Of a stretch of 64,000 bases of DNA, positions 7,275 to 33,183 are shown one piece after another. The notes beneath the pieces are model-generated. The model was not told the DNA's origin. It did not search any database and was given only the letters and a program-made list of their open reading frames with translations. A program made the translations under genes and the position numbers. Origin of the DNA: Myxococcota bacterium (GTDB lineage: Bacteria > Myxococcota_A > UBA9042 > PHBI01 > JACKFB01); assembly GCA_041389525.1 (NCBI GenBank), contig JAWKRR010000018.1, forward strand, positions 1,721-65,720, written 5' to 3'. Numbering within the stretch: position 1 is the stretch's first letter; the number at the start of each line of letters is the position of its first letter.

Positions 7275-7738
7275 GCGCCGAGCCGGACCGCCGTGCCGAA
7301 CGCGAAGATCTCGACGCCCGCGGTGCCTTTGCCGTTGGCGCCGGCGCTGGCGAGGCGCGAGGTCTCGACGCGCACGCAGATGATGGTGTCGTAGCCCAGG
7401 CGCTGCGCCTCCTCCTTCATGCGCAGCACGGCCTCGCGGCGCCCGCGGTCGAGCAGGGTCTCGTAGGTCGACAGCCGCCCGCCGAAGAGCTTGCGCAGGC
7501 CGGCCACGAAGCTCTTGAAGTAGTCGACGGACACGACGACGCCGCCGGTGACGAGGCAGCGGTCCGTGCTGCCGTCGAGGCCCGGCAGGCGTTGCAGCGG
7601 CACCACGGTCATGCTGGCCGTCGCCTGCTCGCGTTCGCGGATGGAGCGGTAGTGATTCGCTTCCAGGCGCCGACCGACGCCGTAGCCGACGAGGAGCAGG
7701 ACGAGCAGGCCCCCGAGTTGAAAAGCAAGCTCTTCCAC
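7271..7738 (-). CDS. YbjQ/UPF0145 family protein with N-terminal TM helix
   Basis: YETLLDRGRREAVLRMKEEA...FAFGTAV matches the YbjQ pattern; overlaps the M48 gene start by 4 nt. Confidence 0.85.
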   Translation of the reverse strand: MEELAFQLGGLLVLLLVGYGVGRRLEANHYRSIREREQATASMTVVPLQRLPGLDGSTDRCLVTGGVVVSVDYFKSFVAGLRKLFGGRLSTYETLLDRGRREAVLRMKEEAQRLGYDTIICVRVETSRLASAGANGKGTAGVEIFAFGTAVRLGA

Positions 7739-8546: not shown

Positions 8547-9035
8547 CTAGAAGAGCGGGTCGCCTGGCAGCTCCGCGGCCTGCCTGAGCCAACTGGCCAG
8601 CAGCTCCTCGTCGAGCCGCTCGCCCTCGTGGATGTGGAGGTAGCGCGTGTTCGGCTGCTTGGAGGCGACGGGTGGGAGCGGGGTCAGCGATGTGCCGCGG
8701 AGAAAGGTCACCTTCAGGTACTTCGCGAAGCAGTGGAACCCCAGAAACCAGCCCTGGCCCGCGACCCCGTAGAACGGCGTGTTCCATCGCACGGCTTTGC
8801 GAACGTGGGGGACGGTGCGGGTGATGAGCGCGTCCAGGTGGCGGCCGGCGTCGCGTTTCCAACCCGGCATGGCGGCGAGATAGGCCTGCACGGGCGCGTC
8901 GCCGTCGCCTTTCGGGATCTGGGGGTTGCCGCCCGACAGGAGCTTCGGTTCGCCTGCGGGCGGCGGGGCGATCGCCTTCTTCGCGGGCTTGGTCTTGGCG
9001 TTTGGCGAGGTCGGGCCTGGCATCGTCGTCACCAT
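8547..9035 (-). CDS. DUF1801 (YdhG-like) domain protein
   Basis: LLSGGNPQIPKGDGDAPVQAYLAAMPGWK...KAVRWNTPFYG...FHCFAKYLKVTF, a typical DUF1801 signature. Confidence 0.85.
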   Translation of the reverse strand: MVTTMPGPTSPNAKTKPAKKAIAPPPAGEPKLLSGGNPQIPKGDGDAPVQAYLAAMPGWKRDAGRHLDALITRTVPHVRKAVRWNTPFYGVAGQGWFLGFHCFAKYLKVTFLRGTSLTPLPPVASKQPNTRYLHIHEGERLDEELLASWLRQAAELPGDPLF

Positions 9036-21911: not shown

Positions 21912-22116
21912 TGCCCACGCTGCAGCGCTCACGTTCTTCCTGTGGGTCGGGCCAACATCAACATAGTCCTGACGGGGCCGGTGTCCAAGCCTGGGACATG
22001 AGCGTTCTCAGCTCCCCTGGGGTCGGTGGGGCCTGCGAGGCAGCGGGATAATCATCATGTGGAACGACAGCGCGGAAGCAATGGGGTGCACCAGCACCTC
22101 GCCTCTGGAGCCAGTC

Positions 22117-22380
22117 ATGGCCACCCCACCCCGCATCACCTTCGATCCGTCGTTGGCGGGCGGGAAGCCGTGCATTCGCGGGCTCCGGGTCACCGTCGCA
22201 GGCCGGTCGTAGGTCTGCCGCTTCCGGGCGTTCCTGAAGAGATCCTCGCGCTCTATCCCTACCTCGAACCCGACGACATTCAGGCTGCCCCACGGCCAGC
22301 GTGGCGAGTCGAGGATAAGACCCGCCCCTCGGCCCTGATGCGCCTCCTGCTCGACATGAACCTCTCCCCCGCGTCGGTGA
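22117..22380 (+). pseudogene. DUF433 antitoxin plus start of a DUF5615 PIN-like toxin, degenerate copy 1
   Basis: MATPPRITFDPSLAGGKPCIRGLRVTV...EEILALYPYLEPDDIQAA, followed by TGATG-coupled MRLLLDMNLSP. Confidence 0.8.
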
Positions 22381-22487
22381 GCGAATTGACGCTCCGTATT
22401 AGTTTCCCTTGGGGTTAGTTCCGTTAGAGGTGGTTCAAAGTGCGAGTACGGGGTAAGAACCCTGCTTTCCCGCGAAGAATATCACCC

Positions 22488-22561: not shown

Positions 22562-22719
22562 AGCACGTGCAGGCTCACCTACCAAGCAAGAGGAGAGGCG
22601 CCTGACAGGCGCGGTGTAGGCCGAGAAGAAGAGAACGCAGCGGATCGGACCGCGTAGTCATCGAAATCAGGAGGGCCTTTTATAAAACTCACCCATGTCG
22701 AGAATTGAGTGGTCTCGAC

Positions 22720-22850
22720 CCCTACATCCTCGACCTCGAACCCGACGACATTCAGGCTGCCCTGACCTACGCCGCGTGGCGAGTCGAGGAGCAAGACTCC
22801 GCCCTCGGCCCTTGATGCGCCTGCTGCCCGACATGGCTTCGCCTGCGGGC
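22720..22850 (+). pseudogene. Second partial DUF433/DUF5615 junction fragment
   Basis: cctcgaacccgacgacattcaggctgccc...gcgtggcgagtcgagga...tgatgcgcctgctgcccgacatg repeats the 22260-22360 segment. Confidence 0.7.
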
Positions 22851-24060: not shown

Positions 24061-24100
24061 CTTCCGGCAGCTCCGCCTCCTGCACCGGGGGCGGGCATGA
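23738..24100 (+). CDS. IS21 accessory ORF 2 (hypothetical, 120 aa)
   Basis: GGAGG ribosome-binding site upstream; TKLLVTDPDGHELLKAALPP..HPRALLTLLEGLALWAG; ATGA overlap with istA. Confidence 0.75.
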   Translation: MHHWKMAIEPTTWNTKLLVTDPDGHELLKAALPPTPQHPRALLTLLEGLALWAGRPLTAVISVGPTLPRHFDEALFGTPLVPSDSALVRFEVVAPARRRRRTLSGVGDFRQLRLLHRGRA

Positions 24101-25605
24101 TCTCCGCCGACCTGAAGGCCAGGATCCGTCGACTCTACCACGCCGAGGGGTGGCCCGTCGGGACCATCGGGCGCCACCTGAGCCTGCACCACAACACAGT
24201 CCGGCAGTCGCTGTTGCGCGACGGCGTGCCGCTGGACGCCATCGCGACGCGGCGCTCGAAGGCCGACCCGTACGTGCCGTTCTTGCTCGGGATGCTGGAG
24301 AAGTACCCGACGCTGACGGCGAGCCGCCTCTACGCGATGGTGCGGGAGCGCGGCTATGACGGCGGCCCCGACCACTTTCGCGTGTTCGTGGCGCGGCACC
24401 GCAAGCGCCCGGCGGCCGAGGCGTACCTGCGCCTGTCGACGCTCCGAGGCGAGCAGGCGCAGGTGGACTGGGGCCACTTCGGCCACATCGACGTCGACGG
24501 CGCACGGCGGCCGCTCGTGGCGTTCGTGATGGTGCTGTCGTGGTCGCGGTGGGCGTTTTTGCGCTTCGGCGTGGACATGCGCATGGGCAGCTTCCTCGAG
24601 CATCACGAGGCCGCGTTCCGCGCGTGGGGCGGCGTGCCGCGGGTGGCGCTCTACGACAACCTCAAGTCGGCCGTGACGCAGCGCATCGGCGACGCCATCG
24701 TGTTCAACACGAACCTGCTGGCGTTCGCGGGGCACTACGGCTACGAACCACGCCCGGTCGCGCCCTACCGCGGCAACGAGAAAGGCCGCGTCGAGCGGGC
24801 GATTCGCGACGTGCGCACGTCGTTCTTCGCGGCGCGGGAGTGGACGGACCTGGCCGACCTGAACGCGCAGGCCGAGCGCTGGTGCCGCGAGGTGCGCGGG
24901 TCGCGGCGGCACCCCGAGGACCGGACGCTCACGGTCGCGCAGGCGTTCGCCGAGGAGCAGGCGCTGCTGCGCGCGCTGCCGAGTGACGCGTTCCCAGTGG
25001 CCGACCGCGTCGAGGTGAAGGTCGGCAAGACGCCGTACGTGCGCTTCGACGGCAACGACTACAGCGTGCCGCACGACCATGTGCGGCGCATGCTGACGGT
25101 GCTGGCGACGAGCGATGCGGTGCGTGTGATAGATGGCGCCGAGGTTGTTGCGACGCACACGCGCTCGTGGGGCAAGGGGCGGCAGGTCGAGGACGCGGCG
25201 CACATGGCGGCGCTTGTCGAGCATAAGCGCGCGGCGCGGGAGGCGCGCGGGATGAACCGCGTGTTCGTGTCGGTGCCACCAGCGCAGGAGCTCGTGCGCG
25301 TCCTCGCCGAGCGCGGTGGCAACATCGGCGGGGCGGTGGCGCGGCTCGGTGAGCTACTCGATGCCTTCGGGGCCGAGGAGATGGTGGCGGCCGTCGACGA
25401 GGCGATGGCGATGGACGCTCCGCACGTCGCGGCGGTGCGACAGATCCTCGACCGACGTCGACGCGACCATGGCCAGCTGGCACCCATCGCCGTGGCGTTG
25501 CCAGACGATCCGCGCGTACGGGGCGTCGTCGTGCGCCGGCCGACGCTCGGCGTGTACGACGCGCTCAAGGGGCTCAAGGGGTTCAAGGGGGGCGGCGATG
25601 AGTGA
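24097..25605 (+). CDS. istA: IS21 family transposase
   Basis: N-terminal HTH; GEQAQVDWG, YDNLK, PYRGNEKGRVER (DDE); FDGNDYSVP. Confidence 0.95.
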   Translation: MISADLKARIRRLYHAEGWPVGTIGRHLSLHHNTVRQSLLRDGVPLDAIATRRSKADPYVPFLLGMLEKYPTLTASRLYAMVRERGYDGGPDHFRVFVARHRKRPAAEAYLRLSTLRGEQAQVDWGHFGHIDVDGARRPLVAFVMVLSWSRWAFLRFGVDMRMGSFLEHHEAAFRAWGGVPRVALYDNLKSAVTQRIGDAIVFNTNLLAFAGHYGYEPRPVAPYRGNEKGRVERAIRDVRTSFFAAREWTDLADLNAQAERWCREVRGSRRHPEDRTLTVAQAFAEEQALLRALPSDAFPVADRVEVKVGKTPYVRFDGNDYSVPHDHVRRMLTVLATSDAVRVIDGAEVVATHTRSWGKGRQVEDAAHMAALVEHKRAAREARGMNRVFVSVPPAQELVRVLAERGGNIGGAVARLGELLDAFGAEEMVAAVDEAMAMDAPHVAAVRQILDRRRRDHGQLAPIAVALPDDPRVRGVVVRRPTLGVYDALKGLKGFKGGGDE

Positions 25606-26326
25606 CGACCTCGACAAGCGTCTTCGCGCCATCGGTCTCGTCGGGCTCGCTGCGCGTCTCGACGAGATCCGCGGCGAACCGTGGGTCGAGCGGGTCATCG
25701 CCATCGAGGCGGAGGAGCGGCAGCGGCGGGGTTTCGATAGCCGCTTCAAGAGCAGCCGACTGGGCCGCTTCAAGCCGATGGCCGACTTCGACTGGAGTTG
25801 GCCGCGTGCCGCCCACCGCGAGGCCATCGACGCCCTGTTCCAGCTCCGGTTCATCGACGAGGGGGCCAACGTGATCCTCGCCGGGCCCAACGGAGTCGGA
25901 AAGACGATGATCGCGAAGAACCTCGCTCACGCGGTGATCCGGGCGGGCAAGACGGGGCGGTTCACGACGGCGAGCGCGATGCTCAACGAGCTGGCCGCGC
26001 AGGAGGGCCTGGTCGCCTTGTCGCGCGCATATCGGCGCTACACGAGCCCGGCGGTCCTGGTCGTCGACGAGCTCGGCTACGTCGCCTACGGCAATCGCCA
26101 CGCCGACGTACTCTTCGAGGTAGTGAACCGCCGCTACGAACTCGGCCGCAGCGTCATCGTCACCACCAACAGGGCGTTTCAGGAGTGGGGGGACCTGTTT
26201 CCCAACGCCACCTGCGTCGTCCCCCTCATCGACCGCCTCGTTCACAAAAGCGACATCTTCGAAATCGACGGTGACTCCTACCGTCTCAAGGAGGCCCAGG
26301 AGCGCGCCCAGCGCCGCAACGCCTGA
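25598..26326 (+). CDS. istB: IS21 family ATP-binding helper protein
   Basis: DFDWSWP, GPNGVGKT, LVVDELGY, SVIVTTNRAFQEWGDLF, IDRLVH. Confidence 0.95.
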   Translation: MSDDLDKRLRAIGLVGLAARLDEIRGEPWVERVIAIEAEERQRRGFDSRFKSSRLGRFKPMADFDWSWPRAAHREAIDALFQLRFIDEGANVILAGPNGVGKTMIAKNLAHAVIRAGKTGRFTTASAMLNELAAQEGLVALSRAYRRYTSPAVLVVDELGYVAYGNRHADVLFEVVNRRYELGRSVIVTTNRAFQEWGDLFPNATCVVPLIDRLVHKSDIFEIDGDSYRLKEAQERAQRRNA

Positions 26327-27057
26327 GTCCTGAGCGCGCGGCTGACCACCGACGACACCGGCGGTCAGCCGCGCTTCTCGCCGCCGTGGATGGCGAGCTG
26401 GCGTAACTCGCCGTCCACGGCGGTGACATCACGCACAACTCGCCGCGCACGATGGGGACATCACCCACAACTCGCCGTTCCTGTGCGCTTATTGGGCGCC
26501 GTCAACACTTGGCGAAAACGAAGTCGTATCGGCCACGGTCCGCGCCGGAATCGGGGGCGAGTCCTCAACTTGCTTCCTGTACGACCTCGTAGTGCTTCAC
26601 GGCCCAGCCATCGGGATGTCTCGCAGTTTCGAGACCGTTCAAGATCCTGGGCCTGGGGCGAAGCTGTTCGTACAGATCAAGTCGCTCAACAGCGCAGGGA
26701 CCATGGGTAGAAACCAGTTGGTCTCCGACCTTCGAAGTCTGTGGGTCGCCAGGAGACACAGCGAGGAGCGAGGTTGCACTGCTGACACGTTGTTCCTCGT
26801 CCTCGCAACCAGCTCCAAGGACGCGAAGGACATCGAGCAGGTCAGGCGCAGGGTCCGGTGGTTAGCGGATCGTTTCGTGGAGTTCACTGGAGACGGTGCT
26901 GCGGCCGACGTGCCTTCCGGCGTGCCGTTCGCATTGGTTCTTGCGGACGGAGTACCGGCCCTGGGCATAAACTCGGTCGACATCAGGCGAACCACGGGAA
27001 CTTGGACACCTCAACCCAAGTGAGACGAGGGGGCGGGTCCGGACTTAGGATGAGCGC

Positions 27058-27197
27058 TGTCTGACCCTGATGTATCCCCACGAATTTTTTACGCTGGAGG
27101 GGGGCGCGCTGGAGGGGGGCGGAGGGCGGTGTCTGACCCTGATGTATCCCCACGAATTTTTTACGCTGGAGGGGCGCGCTGGAGGGGCGGAGGGCGG
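27058..27197 (+). repeat. Two-copy ~70-bp tandem repeat, each unit starting at the TGTCTGACC REP core
   Basis: tgtctgaccctgatgtatccccacgaattttttacgctggagggg...ggagggcgg at 27058-27129 and 27130-27197. Confidence 0.85.
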
Positions 27198-27218
27198 TGT
27201 CGACCCCCGCACTACGCA
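27197..27218 (+). repeat. Left REP-like motif of RAYT copy 1
   Basis: GTGTC-GACCCCCGCACTACGCA, one base shorter than the 30605-30627 copy. Confidence 0.8.
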
Positions 27219-27254
27219 CTTGACCCTTCGGGGCGCTCGACGGAGACTGGTCGC

Positions 27255-28206
27255 ATGGCACGGAAGCAGCGGATCGATGAGGCTGGGGCTTGGCACCACG
27301 TGATGAACCGCGGGGCTCGGCGGGGGATGTGTTTACGCGGGACGACACTGCGTGGCGTTCCTCGACCTGCTCGGCGAGGTGACGTTCGAGTTGGGGTGGG
27401 AGGTGCATGCGTGGGCGCTGATGCCGAACCACTTCCATCTGCTGGTGCGAAGTGTGGAAGGCAACCTGTCGCGGTGCATGCAGACGCTTTGCGGGCGGTA
27501 CACGCGGCGGCTTAACGTGCAGGAGGGTGGGATGGGCCGACGTTTCGCGGGCGCTTTCGGAACCAGCGCATTGTGGACGCTCGCTATCTGCGCCACTTGG
27601 TCGCATACGTTCATCTGAACCCGGTGCGCGCGCGACTGGTGCGGCGGGCTGACGAGGACTGCTGGACCAGCCATCGGTCGCACCTCGGGCTCGACAGTCC
27701 GCCGGCTGGCTGGCGCGCTGGATGGTCGAGCAGGTTCGGCTCGCCGGAGCAGCTTCAGGCGTATGTGCGCGATGTGCACACGGGTCGCGAGCCGTGGCCT
27801 GCGGATTTGGACCTGTCCACGGGTTGGCTGAGCCAGCCAGCCACGGCCAAGGCGCAGTTTTCGCGGGCGCCGGTGGACGCCGACGCATCGCCCGCCGTGC
27901 TCACGCCCGACGACGTGCTCAGCCGGGTCATCGCGGTCACCGGCGCAAGCAAGCCCGAGATCGCGCAGGCGACCCGGAGGCGGCGCAAACCCGCCACGCA
28001 GGTTCGCGGCGTGGATGCTCGCTCGGCACACCACCCTTACCCACGCCGAGATCGGGGCGACCCTGGGGATGGGCCGACGGCAGGAGTCGCTGCTGTACCG
28101 GCTGCGGATGCGGGGAGCGAGTGCGCCGCTGACGGACTGGCGCGACGTGGGACCGGTCGCTGCGCCGCCGTCGCGCTTGGCCCGGACTCGCGGGAGTAAT
28201 GCGTAG
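27255..28206 (+). pseudogene. REP-associated tyrosine transposase (RAYT, Y1_Tnp) copy 1, frameshifted
   Basis: Near-identical to 30664..31629 but with multiple 1-5 nt indels; HAWALMPNHFHLL is retained. Confidence 0.9.
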
Positions 28207-28781
28207 TGCGGGGGTCAGACACTGATGTCCGCGGGGGTAATGCGTAGTGCGGGGGTCAGACACTGATGTCATGGGGGCAGACACACCGCACCGTCCGCAC
28301 CGTCTGACGGACTGGCGCGACGCGTGGGACCTGGTCGCTGCGCCGCCGTCGCGCTTGGCCCGGACTCGCGGGGGGTAATGCGTAGTGCGGGGGTCAGACA
28401 CTGATGTACCCCTTACCCACGCCGAGATCGGGGCGACCTGGGGATGAGCCGACGGGCAGGTGGAGTCGCTGCTGTACCGGCTGCGGATGCGGGGAGCGAG
28501 TGCGCCGCTGACGGACTGGCGCGACGCGTGGGACCTGGTCGCTGCGCCGCCGTCGCGCTTGGCCCGGACTCGCGGGGGTAATGCGTAGTGCGGGGGTCAG
28601 ACACTGATGTCCTGGCCCGGACTCGCGGGGGTAATGCGGTAGTGCGGGGTCAGACACTGATGTCCTGCGCCGTCGCGGCCCGACTCGCGGGGGTAATGCG
28701 TAGTGCGGGGGTCAGACACTGATGTCCACTTGGCCCGGACTCGCGGGGGTAATGCGTAGTGCGGGGGTCAGACACTGATGT
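28178..28781 (+). repeat. Nested array of RAYT 3'-end copies, each ending at GGGGGTCAGACACTGATGT
   Basis: Seven endings at 28228, 28269, 28407, 28610, 28663, 28725 and 28781; intervening units of 41, 138, 203, 53, 62 and 56 bp, all derived from the RAYT 3' end. Confidence 0.85.
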
Positions 28782-28964
28782 ACTGCGACCGGCCCTCCCG
28801 TCGAGCTGCTTCCAAAGCGGTGCCCGACGGCGCTCGCAGCAATCTCACGCAGTCCCTACCGGGCTGAGGAAGATGCGTGGGGATCCCTTAAGGGTCAGAC
28901 ACCGCAACTTGAATAGGTGATACTTATTGCTTAACGCGAGGCCGTGCGGTACGCGTTTTGTATC

Positions 28965-29573
28965 ATGCGTTCTGAGAGCACGACCAAGACTGAGGCGCTG
29001 CTGCGATTGGCCCGGATGGGGCCGGTTCGGGCTCGGGACCTTGATGAGGTTGGGATCCCTCGGGCTTATCTGAGGCGACTTTGCGAGCGCGGGCTGCTGG
29101 CGCGGGTCGACCGCGGGCTCTACCGGCTGGCTGACGCGCCGGTGACGGAGCTGAGTTCCCTCGCCGACGTCTGCAAGCGCGTGCCCAGCGCGGTGATTTG
29201 CCTGCTCAGCGCGCTGCAGGTTCACGGGCTGACGACCGAGGCGCCGCACGCGGTCTGGGTGCTCATCCCGCGTCACGGGCGGTCGCCGAAGCTGGAATCA
29301 CCGAAGCTCGAGGTGGTGCGGGCCAGCGGCGCTGCGCTCGAGCATGGCGTGGAGACACGGACCGTTGACGGGGTGGAAGTCAGGTTCACCACACCTGCGA
29401 AGACCGTCGCCGACTGCTTCCGGTTCCGCCGACACGTGGGCCTCGACGTCGCGCTCGCAGCGCTTAGCGACTACCTGCGCAAACGCGCCGGCAGCGTGGA
29501 CGAGCTTGTCGCAGCCGCCCGCGCAGATCGCATCTATTCGTTCATGCGGCCCTACCTGGAGGCCCTCGCATGA
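28965..29573 (+). CDS. abiEi: Type IV TA antitoxin, AbiEi family transcriptional regulator
   Basis: wHTH (RARDL...YLRRLCERGLLARVDRGLYRL), VICLLSALQVHGLTTE, TTPAKTVADCFRFR. Confidence 0.9.
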   Translation: MRSESTTKTEALLRLARMGPVRARDLDEVGIPRAYLRRLCERGLLARVDRGLYRLADAPVTELSSLADVCKRVPSAVICLLSALQVHGLTTEAPHAVWVLIPRHGRSPKLESPKLEVVRASGAALEHGVETRTVDGVEVRFTTPAKTVADCFRFRRHVGLDVALAALSDYLRKRAGSVDELVAAARADRIYSFMRPYLEALA

Positions 29574-30487
29574 CAAAGCGGCCGCCTACAGATATCGGTG
29601 ACTCGGTCCGCGCTCGACTCGCTCGCGTCGCTCGCCAGCAGGGTGAGGACTTCCAGTTCGTGCTGACGCGATACGCGAACGAGCGGTGGCTCTACCGCCT
29701 GGGCTCATCTCGGCACGCATCTCGATTCGTGCTGAAGGGCGCGGCGCTCTTTTCGATCTGGATGGGCAGACCCCACCGGGCGACTCGCGACATTGACCTG
29801 CTCGGGTTTGGCGACCCGGACGTGGCCCACATTCGCGAACTCTTCGCCGAGCTGCTTGCGCTGGATGTGCCTGAGGACGGCGTCGATTTTGAGCGAGAGT
29901 CGCTGACCGTCGCCCCTATCCGCGGAGGGCAGGAGTACGGCGGCGTGCGAGCCGAGTTCCTAGCCCGCATCACGTCTGCGCGTATTCGGATGCAGGTCGA
30001 CGTCGGGTTTGGGGACGCCGTCACACCCGCGGCGCGCGACACCGAGTTCCCGTGCCTGCTCGACTTTCCAGCCCCGCGCCTGCGGGTGTACCCGCGCGAG
30101 ACCGTCGTCGCCGAGAAGCTTGAGGCGATGGTCCGACTCGGCGCGGCGAATAGTCGGATGAAGGACTTCTTCGATATCGCCGCCCTGGCGCATGGCTTCG
30201 CTTTCGAGGAGGACAGCCTCGCGAGTGCCGTCTCCGCGACCTTCGAGCGCCGCAAGACATCGTTGCCGACGGGCACTCCCGTGGCGCTGACGCCGGAGTT
30301 CACCGACGACACGGCCAAGAAGCTCCAGTGGGCCGGATTCATCCGCAAGGCGAACGTGGGCGACGCGATGAGCCTTCGGGAGACCGGGTCGGCTATTGAC
30401 CGATTCTTGGAAGTCCCTCTCGCCGCGGCCAGACGTGGCGGGCTGAGTTCGGGCGCGGTCTGGAAGCCTGGAGGGCCCTGGGAGTAG
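29570..30487 (+). CDS. abiEii: Type IV TA toxin, AbiEii family nucleotidyltransferase
   Basis: YANERWLYRL, FVLKGAAL, RATRDIDLL, QVDVGFGD, YPRETVVAEKLEAM, SRMKDFFD; ATGA overlap with abiEi. Confidence 0.92.
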   Translation: MTKRPPTDIGDSVRARLARVARQQGEDFQFVLTRYANERWLYRLGSSRHASRFVLKGAALFSIWMGRPHRATRDIDLLGFGDPDVAHIRELFAELLALDVPEDGVDFERESLTVAPIRGGQEYGGVRAEFLARITSARIRMQVDVGFGDAVTPAARDTEFPCLLDFPAPRLRVYPRETVVAEKLEAMVRLGAANSRMKDFFDIAALAHGFAFEEDSLASAVSATFERRKTSLPTGTPVALTPEFTDDTAKKLQWAGFIRKANVGDAMSLRETGSAIDRFLEVPLAAARRGGLSSGAVWKPGGPWE

Positions 30488-30604
30488 GGTCTCGGCGTCC
30501 AGGCGGGGCTCGCGCCGGTGGCAAGGGGAGAGGCGGTCTCGGTTCCTGGTACCCATGCTACACATCAGCAGCCCGACAGCCACGGACTGAAAGACGGGAG
30601 GGCG

Positions 30605-30627
30605 GTGTCTGACCCCCGCACTACGCA
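30605..30627 (+). repeat. Left REP-like motif of RAYT copy 2
   Basis: GTGTCTGACCCCCGCACTACGCA is the exact reverse complement of TGCGTAGTGCGGGGGTCAGACAC found in the arrays at the RAYT 3' ends. Confidence 0.85.
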
Positions 30628-30663
30628 CTTGACCCTTCGGGGCGCTCGACGGAGACTGGTCGC

Positions 30664-31629
30664 ATGGCACGGAAGCAGCGGATCGATGAGGCGGGGGCTT
30701 GGCACCACGTGATGAACCGCGGGGCTCGGCGGGGGGATGTGTTTACGCGGGACGAGCACTGCGTGGCGTTCCTCGACCTGCTCGGCGAGGTGACGTTCGA
30801 GTTGGGGTGGGAGGTGCATGCGTGGGCGCTGATGCCGAACCACTTCCATCTGCTGGTGCGAAGTGTGGAAGGCAACCTGTCGCGGTGCATGCAGACGCTT
30901 TGCGGGCGGTACACGCGGCGGCTTAACGTGCAGGAGGGGTGGGATGGGCCGACGTTTCGCGGGCGCTTTCGGAACCAGCGCATTGTGGACGCTCGCTATC
31001 TGCGCCACTTGGTCGCATACGTTCATCTGAACCCGGTGCGCGCGCGACTGGTGCGGCGGGCTGACGAGGACTGCTGGACCAGCCATCGGTCGCACCTCGG
31101 GCTCGACAGTCCGCCGGCCTGGCTGGCGCGCTGGATGGTCGAGCAGGAGTTCGGCTCGCCGGAGCAGCTTCAGGCGTATGTGCGCGATGTGCACACGGGT
31201 CGCGAGCCGTGGCCTGCGGATTTGGACCTGTCCACGGGTTGGCTGAGCCAGCCAGCCACGGCCAAGGCGCAGTTTTCGCGGGCGCCGGTGGACGCCGACG
31301 CATCGCCCGCCGTGCTCACGCCCGACGACGTGCTCAGCCGGGTCATCGCGGTCACCGGCGCAAGCAAGCCCGAGATCGCGCAGGCGACCCGAGGCCCGGC
31401 CGCAAACCCGCCACGCAGGTTCGCGGCGTGGATGCTCGCTCGGCACACCACCCTTACCCACGCCGAGATCGGGGCGACCCTGGGGATGAGCCGACGGCAG
31501 GTGGAGTCGCTGCTGTACCGGCTGCGGATGCGGGGAGCGAGTGCGCCGCTGACGGACTGGCGCGACGCGTGGGACCTGGTCGCTGCGCCGCCGTCGCGCT
31601 TGGCCCGGACTCGCGGGGGTAATGCGTAG
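30664..31629 (+). CDS. REP-associated tyrosine transposase (RAYT, HUH Y1_Tnp) with C-terminal HTH
   Basis: WHHVMNRGARR, HAWALMPNHFHLL (HuH), YTRRLN...GPTFRGRF, LVAYVHLNPVRA, CWTSHRSH; C-terminal LTHAEIGATLGMSRRQV HTH. Confidence 0.9.
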   Translation: MARKQRIDEAGAWHHVMNRGARRGDVFTRDEHCVAFLDLLGEVTFELGWEVHAWALMPNHFHLLVRSVEGNLSRCMQTLCGRYTRRLNVQEGWDGPTFRGRFRNQRIVDARYLRHLVAYVHLNPVRARLVRRADEDCWTSHRSHLGLDSPPAWLARWMVEQEFGSPEQLQAYVRDVHTGREPWPADLDLSTGWLSQPATAKAQFSRAPVDADASPAVLTPDDVLSRVIAVTGASKPEIAQATRGPAANPPRRFAAWMLARHTTLTHAEIGATLGMSRRQVESLLYRLRMRGASAPLTDWRDAWDLVAAPPSRLARTRGGNA

Positions 31630-32207
31630 TGCGGGGTAGTGTGGGGGTCAGACACCGCACCGTCTGACGGACTGGCGCGACGCGTGGGACCTGGTCGCTG
31701 CGCCGCCGTCGCGCTTGGCCCGGACTCGCGGGGGTAATGCGTAGTGGGGGGATACATCAGGGTCAGACACTGATGTGGTCCTGATGTTCTGATGTGGTCG
31801 TGGCCCGGACTCGCGGGGGCAATGCGATAGTGCGGGGGTCGACACTGATGTCCGACACGATGTCCGGGTCGCTCGAGGCCGGTCCACGCGGCACTGGGCT
31901 TACGAGGCGAGGCGGTCCTGGCACTGGCGACTGTCGCACCTGGGAGGTACTGCGTAGTGCGGGCGTCAGACAGTCGCCCGGACTCGACACCCCCGTGACG
32001 CCGTAGTGGGGTGTCGATCTACGGCTCGCGCCAGACATCCTCACGCCCGCAGTGTCCAGCCGCGACGGCTGCGGATGCGGCTGGAGCGGGAAGTGCGCTC
32101 GCTGAGCGGTACTACGCGCGGACGTCGCGGGGGTCAGACGCTGATGTCCCGCTCTGATGTCCGGACTCGCGGGGGTAATGCGTAGTGCGGGGGTCAGACA
32201 CTGATGT
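31623..32207 (+). repeat. Second, more degenerate array of RAYT 3'-end/REP copies
   Basis: Repeated ggcccggactcgcggggg..tgcgtagtgcgggggtcagacactgatgt variants; hairpins GTCAGAC-accgcacc-GTCTGAC and ACATCAG-ggtcagaca-CTGATGT. Confidence 0.75.
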
Positions 32208-33183
32208 GGACGAGGGTGACGAGAACGACGCGCTCAAGGACGTGTTCTCGAACATCCCGGCGGGCGAGGCCGCGGTCTCGACCATCGACGGCGTCACGCT
32301 GGACATCACGAACCTCGTCCCGGCCATCACGGACGCGTGGACCTACGACGGCTCGCTGACCACGCCGCCCTGCTCGGAAGGCGTGAACTGGATCGTCATG
32401 GCCGAGTCCATGGAGGTCTCCGCGGCGCAGCTCAAGGCGTTCACCGACGTCATTGAGGACAACAACCGCCCCACGCAGTCCCTCGAGGCCCGCACGATTC
32501 ACGGCGCCCACTGGTCCTACGAGGGCGAGGCCGGTCCGGAGAATTGGGGCGAGCTGGCGCACGCGTGGGGGACCTGCGAAGAGGGCACCGAGCAGTCGCC
32601 CATCGACATCGACACCGCGACCGCGCCTGCCGATTTCAGCTCGCTGTCGACGACCTACGGGACCTCGGCGCTGAACATCCTCAACAACGGCCACACGGTT
32701 CAGGTCAACGTGGACGCGGGCAGCACCATCGACGTGGCCGGCAAGGCCTACTCGCTGCTGCAGTTCCACTTCCACGCGGGCAGCGAGCACACCCGTGACG
32801 GGGCGCAGGCCCCCATCGAGATGCACATGGTCCACCAGGCGGCCGACAAGTCGCTGGCGGTCCTCGGTGTGTTCATCACGGAGGGCTCCGAGAACGACAC
32901 GTTGAAGGGCGTGTTCTCGAACCTGCCCGTCACCAGCACGCCCGTCAGCACCGTGGACGGCGAGACCGTCGACGTCGCTGGGCTGCTGCCGGCCAGCCTG
33001 ATGGGCTGGTCGTACGCGGGCTCGCTGACCACGCCGCCCTGCTCGGAGGGCGTGAGTTGGATGGTGATGTCGGAGGATATCGAGGCGTCGAAGGCGCAGA
33101 TCGACAGCTTCACGTCCATCTTCAGCGACAATTTCCGCCCCGTGCAGTCGCTCGGCGCGCGCACGTTGACCGCGGGTAACTAA
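32185..33183 (+). CDS. Tandem-domain alpha-carbonic anhydrase, 5' part replaced by the repeat array
   Basis: Complete second domain (HWSYEG..GPENWG, QSPIDI, NNGHTVQ, QFHFHAGSEH, EMHMVH, YAGSLTTPPCSEGV). The first domain is only its C-terminal half (YDGSLTTPPCSEGVNW..NNRPTQ) and begins at the REP junction near 32207. Confidence 0.85.
   Translation: MRGSDTDVDEGDENDALKDVFSNIPAGEAAVSTIDGVTLDITNLVPAITDAWTYDGSLTTPPCSEGVNWIVMAESMEVSAAQLKAFTDVIEDNNRPTQSLEARTIHGAHWSYEGEAGPENWGELAHAWGTCEEGTEQSPIDIDTATAPADFSSLSTTYGTSALNILNNGHTVQVNVDAGSTIDVAGKAYSLLQFHFHAGSEHTRDGAQAPIEMHMVHQAADKSLAVLGVFITEGSENDTLKGVFSNLPVTSTPVSTVDGETVDVAGLLPASLMGWSYAGSLTTPPCSEGVSWMVMSEDIEASKAQIDSFTSIFSDNFRPVQSLGARTLTAGN

What the first reader, a model, noticed from the sequence alone, without database searches (positions are those of the whole stretch)
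27058..32207. RAYT-REP unit in tandem with an AbiE TA operon as cargo between inverted REP motifs
Seen: the architecture is REP>-RAYT-<REP array-abiEi-abiEii-REP>-RAYT-<REP array. Each RAYT is preceded by the same 23-bp motif (GTGTCTGACCCCCGCACTACGCA) and followed by reverse-complement copies starting at its stop codon. The abiE operon is itself flanked by GGGTCAGACAC (28892) and GTGTCTGACCC (30605) in inverted orientation. At least 15 exact or near-exact core copies lie in 5 kb. Known: RAYTs are HUH nucleases that nick at REPs and are usually viewed as domesticated single-copy genes spreading short non-coding REPINs. Inference: here a RAYT may duplicate itself and mobilise gene-sized cargo, a REP-bounded cassette system stabilised by an addiction or Abi module.
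Basis: partly seen in the sequence, partly recalled or inferred. Interest (0 to 1): 0.75.

Follow-up and report, generated by a model that had tools for sequence, protein, structure and literature searches.

The report
Duplicated TIR-flanked tyrosine transposase beside AbiE
Two copies of a little-studied RAYT-like transposase gene (a "TIRtron"), each trailed by stuttering arrays of its own end fragments, sit either side of an AbiE toxin-antitoxin operon in a mobile-DNA island of a myxobacterium; the repeats are real, but nothing shows that the transposase carries AbiE as cargo.

Summary
Sixteen copies (≤1 mismatch) of the 11-bp core lie in 27057-32201, none elsewhere in the 64 kb (1.5 expected by chance). 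They bracket two Y1/HUH transposase genes with an intact abiEi/abiEii operon between.

Corrections:
- Copy 1 is frameshifted: 9 deletion events relative to copy 2.
- Its left motif lacks one base.
- The "REP arrays" are nested 3'-terminal fragments of the transposase unit (25-187 bp). All end at the same tip, ...GGGGGTCAGACAC(TGATGT).

The gene is not a classical REP/REPIN RAYT. It fits the TIRtron/TIRYT kind (Di Nocera 2013; subclass 2.1 of Quentin 2018): a 321-aa HUH-Tyr domain closest to TnpA_REP, a C-terminal DnaA-type HTH, a 23-bp perfect TIR, and a right TIR overlapping the stop codon.

abiE lies between two units, not inside one, and is single-copy. Its nearest relatives (≤68% identity) sit at a fixed site without the motif. 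Across the family, neighbours are mostly housekeeping genes. The cargo claim is therefore unsupported, though TA or defence genes adjoin TIRs in several close relatives.

The most interesting result is that tip-anchored nested end fragments recur in relatives (L003, L017, 11 of 45 distant loci). I infer repeated abortive nick-extend-rejoin events at the element tip.

The parts
27054..27197 (+). Two tandem 72-bp B-type repeat units (cores at 27057 and 27129; GTGTCTGACCCTGATGTATCCCCACGAATTTTTTACGCTGGAGGGG...GGAGGGCG), running directly into the left TIR of unit 1.
   Evidence: D11, D13; period 72, 2.2 copies. A homologous B-type segment occurs in L003 at 7425-7470 and 7690-7735.
27189..27232 (+). 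Left TIR (type A) of unit 1. It is the 23-mer with a 1-nt deletion at 27198-27219, preceded by GGAGGGCG and followed by CTTGACC.
27256..28199 (+). TIRYT copy 1. It is about 98% identical to copy 2 but carries 9 deletion events (15 nt), so it is frameshifted. It is either a pseudogene or an error-laden consensus.
28200..28775 (+). Right-end array 1. It holds the element's own right TIR plus 6 further tips (7 in all), plus one degenerate core at 28274. Each tip closes a nested 3' fragment of the transposase unit (25, 89, 187, 38, 29 and 38 bp by BLAST; the 29-bp piece may be longer with internal deletions), and each ends ...GGGGGTCAGACACTGATGT.
   Evidence: (D1-D3, D5).
28776..28905 (-). B-type ~125-bp segment in reverse orientation, ending in the core GGGTCAGACAC at 28892-28902. 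It is conserved directly downstream of the identical transposase gene in L001, so it is the tail of unit 1.
   Evidence: L001 997-1194 matches window 28729-28905 at 86%.
28944..29573 (+). abiEi antitoxin/regulator (AbiEi_4 N-terminal wHTH plus AbiEi_1 C-terminal domain). The likely ATG is at 28965. An AT-richer putative promoter region begins 3-4 nt after the B core.
29570..30487 (+). abiEii nucleotidyltransferase toxin (PF08843, E 2.6e-45). Its start overlaps the abiEi stop (ATGA).
30595..30637 (+). Left TIR (type A) of unit 2. The exact 23-mer is at 30605-30627, preceded by GGGAGGGCG and 36 nt upstream of the ATG.
   Evidence: I3-I9.
30664..31629 (+). TIRYT copy 2, intact at 321 aa. It has the HUH motif (PNHFHLL), a conserved Tyr in YVHLNPVRA, and a C-terminal DnaA-DBD-like HTH. 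It is 100% identical over 1034 nt to an independent short-read metagenome contig (L001).
31607..32207 (+). Right-end array 2. It contains a right TIR with an internal 10-nt duplication (31623-31655), an 88-bp fragment ending in an A/B hybrid tip (31664-31770), and further tips at 31801-31851, 31951-31973 (2 mismatches), 32127-32147 and 32161-32207. The last tip abuts a truncated host gene.
32208..33183 (+). Context: an alpha-carbonic anhydrase gene with tandem domains. The N-terminal half of its first domain is missing, and the break is exactly at the last repeat tip (...CTGATGT|GGACGAGGG). The missing half is nowhere in the window.
   Evidence: (D12).

Best explanation
The locus is a local cluster of two copies of a TIRtron. 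A TIRtron is a gene for a TIR-associated tyrosine (Y1/HUH) transposase (TIRYT, subclass 2.1 of the TnpA_REP/RAYT branch) bounded by 23-bp terminal inverted repeats. The cluster lies in a lower-GC island of mobile and TA DNA in a Myxococcota genome.

Shown:
- The protein has a RAYT-like HUH-Tyr catalytic domain fused to a DnaA-domain-IV-type HTH.
- Its TIRs sit where they sit across the family: the left TIR a few tens of bp upstream of the start, the right TIR over the stop codon.
- The repeat arrays beside each copy are nested terminal fragments of the element, all anchored at the same outer tip.
- The same tip is joined directly to a truncated host gene.

Inferred mechanism:
1. The HTH domain docks on the near-palindromic GTCWGAC core.
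2. The HUH domain nicks one strand at the outer tip and stays covalently linked to the 5' end. This polarity is established HUH chemistry.
3. A polymerase extends the free flank 3'-OH a short way into the element.
4. The enzyme-bound old 5' end is then rejoined to the nascent 3' end, giving [tip..n][tip..full].
5. Repetition of this cycle builds the stuttering arrays. Because the ends are inverted repeats, the same event on the other strand builds the right-hand arrays.
6. Occasional strand transfer to ectopic sites would give the tip-precise truncations of neighbouring genes.
7. Use of a more distal tip as the end would copy longer units. That explains why both arrays share one junction.

abiE is an ordinary, apparently self-contained AbiE type IV TA/abortive-infection operon. 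It ended up between two TIRtron insertions, or was inserted between two adjacent copies. It may help retain the island, but nothing shows that the transposase moves it.
For: Identity of the element:
- Pfam Y1_Tnp scores 31.8 bits against a cut-off of 23.
- A profile of 22 homologues hits PDB 4ER8 (TnpA_REP) best, E 7e-8.
- The AF2 model (pLDDT 85) matches 4ER8 (TM 0.71). Another part matches the DnaA DNA-binding domain 3PVP (TM 0.71); I take this to be the C-terminal part, where Pfam places Bac_DnaA_C.
- Bac_DnaA_C, HTH_23, HTH_28 and Sigma70_r4_2 hit the family (9, 6, 1 and 5 of 22 members). Quentin 2018 lists the first three for subclass 2.1.2.
- The TIRs are 23 bp and perfect (I3-I9).
- Of the 63 family loci with enough flank to assess, 53 have TIR pairs at the same positions. 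Their tips read GGGGTCAGRYC..TACACATTTGACA, alignable to the window's GGTGTCTGACC..TACGCACTTGACC.

Nested tip-anchored fragments:
- Window.
- L003: a 76-bp left-end fragment, reproduced in 4 samples.
- L017: at least 16 fragments of 6-90 nt.
- Distant family: 11 of 45 loci have same-orientation tip duplications at an end.

Tip-precise joints to foreign DNA:
- The carbonic anhydrase gene at 32207/32208.
- The interior of an IS110 transposase gene in L003 at 7352 and about 17545.

Other support:
- The shared filler CGCACCGT plus a fragment start at 31549 occurs in both arrays.
- Non-autonomous, internally deleted derivatives exist in the family (L044 at 8553-8866, L099 at 304-572).
- abiE as bystander rests.
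Against: - No biochemical work on TIRYTs turned up in the held library, where only two papers mention them. The nick site, its strand and the role of the HTH are therefore inference.
- The left ends in the window lack the ACATCAG extension that the right tips carry, so the exact tip is uncertain.
- The core is near-palindromic, which makes the orientation of B-type copies ambiguous.
- Junctions often contain 0-6 nt of filler. The simple rejoin model does not predict this.
- The deletion-only differences in copy 1, and indels inside array units, suggest consensus errors in this repeat-rich stretch. Fine details of the arrays may be unreliable.
- Close relatives lie next to TA or defence genes in 4 of 6 loci examined (window, L002, L017, L020, against L003 and L008 with other contents). 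This hints at more than chance adjacency.
Confidence: 0.6

Rival explanations
1. The transposase mobilises gene-sized cargo. Either abiE is a cassette bounded by inverted repeat cores, or the span A>(27198) ... <A(32201) is a composite element carrying abiE, with the TA module stabilising the element.
For: - The cores at 28892 and 30605 are inverted.
- The outermost A> and <A form a proper TIR pair enclosing abiE.
- Both arrays share a junction, so a unit longer than the minimal element has been copied.
- In MAG GCA_964577445.1, a PIN-RHH module lies between two same-orientation TIRs next to a TIRYT. Nested fragments anchored at the outer TIR run into the 3' end of the PIN gene (L017).
- In the same MAG, an AbrB-PIN module lies between A> and a degenerate A> (L002).
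Against: - abiE lies outside each individual unit, in the opposite arrangement to TIR> gene <TIR.
- The core at 28892 is part of a segment that follows the transposase gene in L001, where no abiE is attached.
- abiE is single-copy, and there is no second abiE-bearing element anywhere searched.
- AbiEii relatives are ≤68% identical, and the one I examined sits at a fixed site without the motif.
- Family-wide there is no TA enrichment among neighbours.
- The supposed right TIR after the L002 TA is not better than background (score 18; null mean 16, maximum 25).
Confidence: 0.12
2. Assembly artefact. The second transposase copy and/or the arrays come from misassembly or poor polishing of a repeat in long-read data. 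The true locus would have one TIRtron with one or two terminal repeats.
For: - Copy 1 differs from copy 2 by 9 deletion events and only about 4 isolated substitutions.
- Several array units carry 1-nt indels.
- An independent short-read contig with the identical gene shows only one <A followed by the B segment (L001).
- Elsewhere in the window ORFs of 1,100-2,100 aa are intact, so any errors are concentrated in this repeat region.
Against: - The two copies have different left flanks and differently composed arrays. Unique sequence (abiE, 1.7 kb) separates them.
- Comparable tip-anchored arrays occur in independent assemblies of relatives, including four samples for L003-L006 and a SPAdes-type MAG for L017.
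- They also occur in 11 of 45 distant loci.
Confidence: 0.1
3. Passive repeat dynamics. The arrays and the duplication arose by replication slippage and unequal homologous recombination between pre-existing repeat copies, with no current activity of the transposase. The gene would be domesticated or decaying, and the repeats merely recombination-prone.
For: - Array units of 41-56 bp are close to tandem repeats.
- More distant family members are single-copy at fixed sites among housekeeping genes, which looks like domestication.
- Copy 1 may be a pseudogene.
Against: - Slippage does not explain why every fragment, over a 25-187 bp range (6-90 nt in L017), shares exactly one terminus while the other end varies.
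- It does not explain why the same terminus is the joint to unrelated genes.
- It does not explain why the pattern recurs at element tips across distant relatives with different TIR sequences.
- Copy 2 is intact and identical in two samples.
Confidence: 0.15

Closest known systems
TIRtrons / TIRYTs (TIR-associated tyrosine transposases; Di Nocera, De Gregorio & Rocco 2013, PMC3733652)
   Same: - A RAYT-like Y1/HUH protein that is longer than RAYTs.
- The gene is flanked by long terminal inverted repeats rather than GTAG-tagged REP hairpins.
- The TIR carries a GGGGWSAS-type motif (GGGGTCAG on one strand).
- The right TIR overlaps the 3' end of the gene.
- TIR copies occur as singles, dimers or clusters.
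   Different: - There are two near-identical copies within 3.4 kb.
- The TIR has a 7-8-nt insertion relative to the compact family consensus.
- The clusters here resolve into nested, tip-anchored fragments of the element itself. As far as I found, the two papers that mention TIRYTs do not describe this.
- The setting is a TA, IS and defence island.
Subclass 2.1 (2.1.2) of TnpA_REP in the Y1 HuH classification (Quentin et al. 2018, PMC6006769)
   Same: - Among the longest Y1 proteins.
- The C-terminal extension resembles Bac_DnaA_C, HTH_23 or HTH_28.
- No typical REPs lie nearby.
- The authors equate this subclass with the TIRYTs.
   Different: I did not place the protein in their tree. Assignment rests on domain architecture and TIR features only.
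Classical RAYT/REPIN systems (E. coli TnpA_REP, PDB 4ER8; Pseudomonas RAYTs; Nunvar 2010; Bertels & Rainey 2011; Bertels 2017, PMC5581495)
   Same: - Best sequence and structural match of the catalytic domain.
- The gene is bracketed by cognate inverted repeats.
- The repeat contains GTAG.
   Different: - The protein is about twice as long, with an added HTH domain.
- It falls below the NCBIfam RAYT cut-off.
- The motif alone is not a hairpin.
- There are no copies in the other 59 kb of the window.
- The gene is duplicated, whereas duplicates are rare among RAYTs: 6.2% in Group 1, the highest rate within the RAYT family proper.
IS200/IS605 family (IS608, ISDra2 TnpA)
   Same: - The same Y1/HUH fold and ssDNA chemistry.
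- The ends are recognised asymmetrically.
- No target duplications are expected.
   Different: - IS200/IS605 elements have subterminal hairpins and no TIRs.
- Their transposases are small (about 130-155 aa).
- The match here is weaker than to TnpA_REP.
AbiE type IV toxin-antitoxin / abortive infection system (Dy et al. 2014, PMC3985639)
   Same: A bicistronic operon with overlapping genes, an AbiEi antitoxin with a wHTH, and an AbiEii DUF1814 nucleotidyltransferase.
   Different: Nothing unusual in the operon itself. Only its position between two TIRtron copies is notable.

Membership tests
TIRtron / TIRYT | Encodes a Y1 HUH transposase homologous to RAYTs (HUH motif and catalytic Tyr). | tested here: met
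   - Y1_Tnp scores 31.8 bits against a cut-off of 23.
- H60/H62 of PNHFHLL are nearly invariant/invariant, and Y119 is nearly invariant, in 22 homologues.
- The best PDB matches are 4ER8 by sequence (E 7e-8) and by fold (TM 0.71).
TIRtron / TIRYT | The gene is flanked by long terminal inverted repeats rather than self-complementary GTAG REP hairpins. | tested here: met
   - The TIR is 23 bp at 100% for copy 2, and against all array tips (I3-I9).
- The motif region does not fold better than shuffles (z +1.1).
- Caveat: the right end has a modest imperfect hairpin (z -2.8).
TIRtron / TIRYT | The TIR shares the GGGGWSAS motif or is homologous to the TIRs of other TIRYTs. | tested here: met
   - GGGGTCAG is present on the complementary strand of the TIR.
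- An alternative, longer alignment is GGTGTCTGACC..TACGCACTTGACC against the family's GGGGTCAGACC TACACATTTGACA.
- Which orientation is the functional one remains ambiguous because the core is near-palindromic.
TIRtron / TIRYT | Position of the TIRs: left TIR upstream of the start, right TIR at or overlapping the stop codon. | tested here: met
   In the window the left TIR ends 36 nt before the ATG, and the right TIR overlaps the stop codon by one base, starting 2 nt into the TAG. One search's list of 53 loci with TIR pairs shows the same layout in most of them.
TnpA_REP subclass 2.1 (Quentin 2018) | A long protein with a C-terminal HTH related to Bac_DnaA_C, HTH_23 or HTH_28. | tested here: met
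   - The window protein itself is weak (Bac_DnaA_C E 0.004).
- Of 22 homologues, 9 hit Bac_DnaA_C, 6 hit HTH_23 and 5 hit Sigma70_r4_2.
- Part of the model matches the DnaA DNA-binding domain 3PVP, TM 0.71; Pfam places Bac_DnaA_C at residues 220-275.
TnpA_REP subclass 2.1 (Quentin 2018) | Phylogenetic placement inside the 2.1 clade. | not tested
Classical RAYT with REP/REPIN population | The protein passes the curated RAYT model. | tested here: not met
   NCBIfam NF047646 REP_Tyr_transpos scores 69 bits against a cut-off of 80, and covers only residues 3-134.
Classical RAYT with REP/REPIN population | The cognate repeats are short palindromic hairpins dispersed in many extragenic sites of the genome. 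| tested here: inconclusive
   - No copy lies outside 27057-32201 in the 64 kb, and the hairpin is weak.
- The rest of the genome could not be read.
- The 20-mer found one other record among 185,579 species genomes. A second, overlapping 20-mer found none in the metagenome collection.
Classical RAYT with REP/REPIN population | A single-copy, vertically inherited gene. | tested here: not met
   Two copies lie 3.4 kb apart at about 98% identity. More distant family members do look single-copy at fixed sites.
IS200/IS605 insertion sequence | Subterminal hairpins without TIRs, and a small TnpA. | tested here: not met
   A perfect 23-bp TIR is present, the protein is 321 aa with an extra domain, and matches to ISDra2/IS608 TnpA are weaker than to TnpA_REP.
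AbiE type IV TA / Abi | A bicistronic abiEi (wHTH antitoxin) and abiEii (DUF1814 NTase) with overlapping or adjacent genes. | tested here: met
   AbiEi_4 E 3.4e-12 plus AbiEi_1; AbiEii E 2.6e-45; 4-bp ATGA overlap at 29570-29573.
AbiE type IV TA / Abi | Toxicity neutralised by the antitoxin, and phage defence. | not testable with these tools
   This needs expression and phage assays.
Cargo-carrying (composite or cassette) transposon | The same cargo bounded by the same ends occurs at more than one site, or an empty site exists in a relative. | tested here: not met
   No second abiE copy was found. The exact AbiEii protein is on record only on the source contig. L001 has the same transposase unit without abiE attached. 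This is not exhaustive, because the source genome could not be read.

The most novel reading that the evidence does not exclude
TIRYT elements of this Myxococcota clade are active. They use any of several alternative tips as ends, so they copy variable-length units. By the same end-bypass route they occasionally capture adjacent genes. TA modules would be the cargo that survives because it enforces retention, giving TIR-bounded TA cassettes as in L017 and L002, and a composite TIRtron-abiE-TIRtron here. The nested tip-anchored arrays would then be the footprint of a nick-primed, rolling-circle-like copy mechanism not previously described for the RAYT/TIRYT branch.
Probability: 0.15. Interest if true: 0.7.

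Novelty: new member of a known kind. Interest (0 to 1): 0.42.

Why it matters
TIRYTs are a large family: more than 3,388 homologues at E ≤ 1e-5 in the protein search alone. They are almost unstudied. Only two papers in the held library mention them, and I found no biochemistry.

This locus and its relatives give a concrete, testable handle on how these enzymes act. A defined tip behaves as a hot end. It accumulates nested partial copies of the element, and it is the exact joint to truncated neighbouring genes. That points to a specific nick site and polarity, and it suggests a role for the DnaA-like HTH in recognising the GTCWGAC core.

The result also corrects a tempting over-reading. An Abi/TA operon lying between two transposase copies is not evidence that it is cargo. 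If the cargo reading were nevertheless true, it would link HUH single-strand transposases to the spread of TA and defence modules.

Tried and rejected
1. **Exact look-ups of the window proteins.** The TIRYT was found only on a 1,270-bp ENA contig. AbiEii is not on record, so the source genome could not be read.
2. **Motif scans of public collections.** GTAGTGCGGGGGTCAGACAC in genome contigs gave one hit, L002. The overlapping 20-mer TGTCTGACCCCCGCACTACG (its complement shifted by one base) in metagenome contigs gave none. A genome-wide census of what the motif flanks was therefore impossible.
3. **A TIR-bounded vapBC cassette in L002 (A> ... <A).** I rejected this because the putative right TIR scores no better than background windows. 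What stands is A> - TA - degenerate A> in direct orientation.
4. **A canonical family-type left TIR facing abiE at 28892-28916.** I rejected this on inspection of the sequences. Beyond the shared core plus CGC, only about 7 nt (ACTTGA) resemble the TIR interior, which I judge no better than chance.
5. **Family-wide TA enrichment next to TIRYTs.** Rejected. Among the 25 most frequent families over 127 neighbouring ORFs, ParE appears twice and AbiEi_2 once. P0033 and P0027 lie among housekeeping genes.
6. **The motif as a REP hairpin.** Left-end and B-type sequences fold no better than shuffles.
7. **A simple tandem duplication that includes abiE.** Rejected because abiE is not duplicated and the second unit is followed by a truncated carbonic anhydrase gene.
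8. **P0007 look-up.** It failed because the protein is not on record.
9. **Promoter and terminator scan of the region.** It gave nothing above shuffles.

Full report
**1. What is in the sequence**

The window is about 72% G+C, with a lower-GC stretch (64-69%) from about 20 to 32 kb. That stretch holds:
- remnants of DUF433/DUF5615-like TA genes, identified from the translations only;
- an IS21 element, with istA at 24097-25605 and istB at 25316-26326, whose right end interrupts an unknown ORF;
- the region of the finding.

The 11-mer GTGTCTGACCC (≤1 mismatch) occurs 16 times, all between 27057 and 32201. Shuffles give 1.5. The 23-mer (≤3 mismatches) occurs 10 times against 0 expected. The repeat cluster is therefore real, far above chance, and strictly local within the 64 kb.

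**2. Anatomy**

Two repeat types share the core. Type A is GTGTCTGACCCCCGCACTACGCA. Type B is GTGTCTGACCCTGATGTATCCCCACGAAT... I write > for the orientation given and < for its reverse complement. Reading left to right:

1. B> B>, as 72-bp tandem units (27054-27197).
2. A> with a 1-nt deletion (27198).
3. Transposase copy 1 (27256-28199).
4. Seven <A tips (28200-28775).
5. A ~125-bp <B segment (28776-28905).
6. abiEi/abiEii (28944-30487).
7. A> (30605).
8. Transposase copy 2 (30664-31629).
9. A second array of <A tips and one A/B hybrid (31607-32207).
10. An alpha-carbonic anhydrase gene whose first domain has lost its N-terminal half.

Further points on the two copies:
- Copy 2 is intact (321 aa). 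It is 100% identical over 1034 nt to an independent short-read metagenome contig, L001.
- Copy 1 differs by 9 indel events, all deletions in copy 1, and about four isolated substitutions. It is broken into several frames.
- That deletion-only pattern looks more like consensus error in a repeat, or like decay, than like ordinary divergence. I cannot tell which.

**3. The arrays are nested end fragments**

BLAST of the region against copy 2 shows that each array unit is a 3'-terminal piece of the transposase unit. The pieces are 25, 89, 187, 38, 29 and 38 bp in array 1, and 88, 37 and 32 bp in array 2. Each piece ends at the same tip...GCGTAGTGCGGGGGTCAGACAC, usually followed by TGATGT(C/A)C. 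Only the inner end varies.

Both arrays contain the same junction: the core, then filler CGCACCGT, then a fragment starting at 31549. The two units therefore descend from a unit that already carried an extra fragment. What was copied was longer than the minimal TIR-to-TIR element.

The last tip is joined directly to the interior of the carbonic anhydrase gene (...CTGATGT|GGACGAGGG). The missing half of that domain is not in the window.

**4. What the gene is**

Sequence evidence:
- Pfam Y1_Tnp passes its cut-off.
- NCBIfam's RAYT model does not (69 against 80 bits), and covers only the N-terminal 134 residues.
- More than 3,388 homologues of about 300 aa exist, many from Myxococcota or 'Deltaproteobacteria'.
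- In an alignment of 22 of them, the HUH histidines (PNHFHLL) and the Tyr of Y(I/V)HLNPVRA are conserved. So is a C-terminal block, GANPARRFA...EIG...MS..QV.
- The profile's best solved relative is E. coli TnpA_REP, 4ER8.

Structure evidence:
- The AlphaFold model has pLDDT 85. It matches 4ER8 with TM 0.71.
- Another part of the model matches the DnaA DNA-binding domain 3PVP with TM 0.71. Pfam places Bac_DnaA_C at residues 220-275.
- Bac_DnaA_C, HTH_23 and Sigma70_r4_2 hit 9, 6 and 5 of the 22 homologues.

This is the architecture that Quentin et al. 2018 give for subclass 2.1.2 of TnpA_REP. They equate that subclass with the TIRYTs of Di Nocera et al. 2013: RAYT-like genes flanked by long TIRs, often carrying GGGGWSAS, with the TIRs sometimes forming dimers or clusters.

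The window's TIR is a perfect 23-mer and contains GGGGTCAG on one strand.

**5. Family survey**

A scan of metagenome contigs with the family alignment returned 80 distant loci at 24-49% identity.
- Of the 63 with enough flank to assess, 53 have a TIR pair laid out as in the window. The left TIR lies a few tens to about 200 bp upstream, and the right TIR lies over or just past the stop.
- Their tips read GGGGTCAGRYC..TACACATTTGACA. This aligns to the window's GGTGTCTGACC(+7 nt)TACGCACTTGACC.

Membership in the TIRtron kind is therefore well supported. The motif is not a stable hairpin on its own. Only the right end forms a modest imperfect one, CCCGGACTCGC-GGGGGTAAT-GCGTAGTGCGGG.

**6. Are the nested arrays peculiar to this assembly?**

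No.
- The 91%-identical orthologue (P0001) has a 76-bp left-end fragment (TIR, 5' UTR and 13 nt of CDS) in tandem before the full element. This is reproduced in four samples.
- In the same locus, 265-bp composite units that begin with the A-type TIR truncate an IS110 transposase gene exactly at a tip.
- The 64%-identical relative P0005 comes from MAG GCA_964577445.1 (locus L017). Upstream it has at least 16 tandem fragments of 6-90 nt. All start GATCAGGCGTCTGAC..., and they are separated by 0-6 nt of filler.
- Among 45 distant loci with TIR pairs, 11 show same-orientation tip duplications at an end. Seven have further copies, and two have internally deleted MITE-like derivatives.

Tip-anchored partial duplication is thus a recurrent property of the family. 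This argues against a pure assembly artefact and against simple slippage.

**7. How it most likely works (inference)**

HUH enzymes nick ssDNA, bind the 5' phosphate covalently and leave a 3'-OH. That is established chemistry for Y1 transposases and rolling-circle Rep proteins. From this, the proposed cycle is:

1. The nick falls at the outer edge of the tip.
2. The flank's 3'-OH primes synthesis into the element.
3. Rejoining the enzyme-bound old 5' end to the nascent strand after n nucleotides yields [tip..n][tip..full].
4. Repetition gives arrays of nested fragments outside the element. These appear on the left or, via the inverted TIR on the other strand, on the right.

Transfer to ectopic 3' ends would give the tip-precise truncations of neighbouring genes. 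Use of a distal tip would copy longer units. The DnaA-type HTH may recognise the near-palindromic GTCWGAC core in duplex DNA.

None of these steps has been tested. The filler nucleotides and the absence of the ACATCAG extension at the left ends remain unexplained.

**8. The cargo claim**

abiE is an ordinary AbiE operon (Dy 2014, PMC3985639). Evidence against cargo:
- It lies between the tail of unit 1 and the head of unit 2.
- The core at 28892 belongs to a segment that follows the same transposase gene in L001, where abiE is absent and the B tail continues differently.
- abiE's own AT-richer upstream region begins 3-4 nt after that core.
- abiE is not duplicated.
- The exact AbiEii protein is on record only on the source contig, and its relatives are ≤68% identical.
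- One such relative occupies a fixed site downstream of 2-oxoacid dehydrogenase genes in eight places drawn from at least eight samples, and none of those loci has the motif.
- Neighbours of distant TIRYTs are mainly housekeeping genes.

Observations pointing the other way:
- In the close clade, TA or defence genes adjoin TIRs repeatedly: PIN-RHH between two same-orientation TIRs in L017, AbrB-PIN between A> and a degenerate A> in L002, and Wadjet/SNF2 genes beside P0006.
- In L017 the nested fragments anchored at the outer TIR run into the 3' end of the PIN gene.
- The span 27198-32201 is formally a TIR-bounded composite.

I therefore rate cargo mobilisation as unproven and unlikely for abiE here (about 0.12-0.15), but not excluded.

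**9. Verdict**

The repeat architecture is real. The interpretation needs re-filing, from 'RAYT-REP with cargo' to 'duplicated TIRtron (TIRYT subclass 2.1) in a TA/IS island'.

The locus is a new member of a known but barely studied kind. Its main value is the clear footprint of end-directed activity, which makes the mechanism of TIRYTs directly testable.

Noticed in passing
L003 6715-6740 and 17545-17750 (relative's locus): Two copies of an IS110-family element begin immediately after GTCTGA| of a TIR-type core (GAGGTGTCTGA|TGGCGTAAGG and GGGGTCTGA|TGGCGTAAGG). This suggests the IS targets the TIR core. From general knowledge, not checked here, some IS110/IS1111 members are reported to target REPs. 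Both IS copies are also truncated at a junction with another TIR tip.
   Followed up: partly
L003 17100-17540: An array of a sibling repeat (GCCAAGTGCGTACTGCGGGGGTCAGACCCCATGCC, ~46-bp units) with an embedded CCCCCATG microsatellite. This points to a second TIR family in the same organism.
   Followed up: no
window 32185-33183: An alpha-carbonic anhydrase gene with two tandem CA domains. The first domain is truncated exactly at the last repeat tip, and its missing half is absent from the window. This implies an adjacent deletion or a larger rearrangement.
   Followed up: partly
window 24097-26510: An IS21-family element (istA/istB) with multiple terminal direct repeats at 26405-26477. It interrupts an unknown ORF whose C-terminal part runs to 27023 and has no Pfam or NCBIfam hit.
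   Followed up: partly
window 22026-22418 and 22695-22840; L002 3048-3355: Fragments that, by eye, resemble DUF433/DUF5615-type (PIN-like) TA genes (MRLLLDMNLSP...). I ran no family search on them. They are 82-90% identical at DNA level to a segment of the Myxococcales MAG contig L002, so the island carries several TA remnants shared with that MAG.
   Followed up: no
L044 8553-8866 and 7705-7747; L099 304-572: In distant family members there are internally deleted MITE-like derivatives (left ~100 bp plus right ~171 bp of the element) and a 43-bp tip-to-tip TIR dimer within a few kb of the parent gene.
   Followed up: partly
L020 1854-8132: The 63%-identical TIRYT P0006 lies next to an SNF2-family helicase and JetD/JetC-like (Wadjet) genes, which is a defence-island context.
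   Followed up: no
window 31748-31776: At the A/B hybrid tip, the sequence ACATCAGGGTCAGACACTGATGT forms a 7-bp perfect palindrome around the core. It is followed by three CTGATGT repeats (31766-31795).
   Followed up: no
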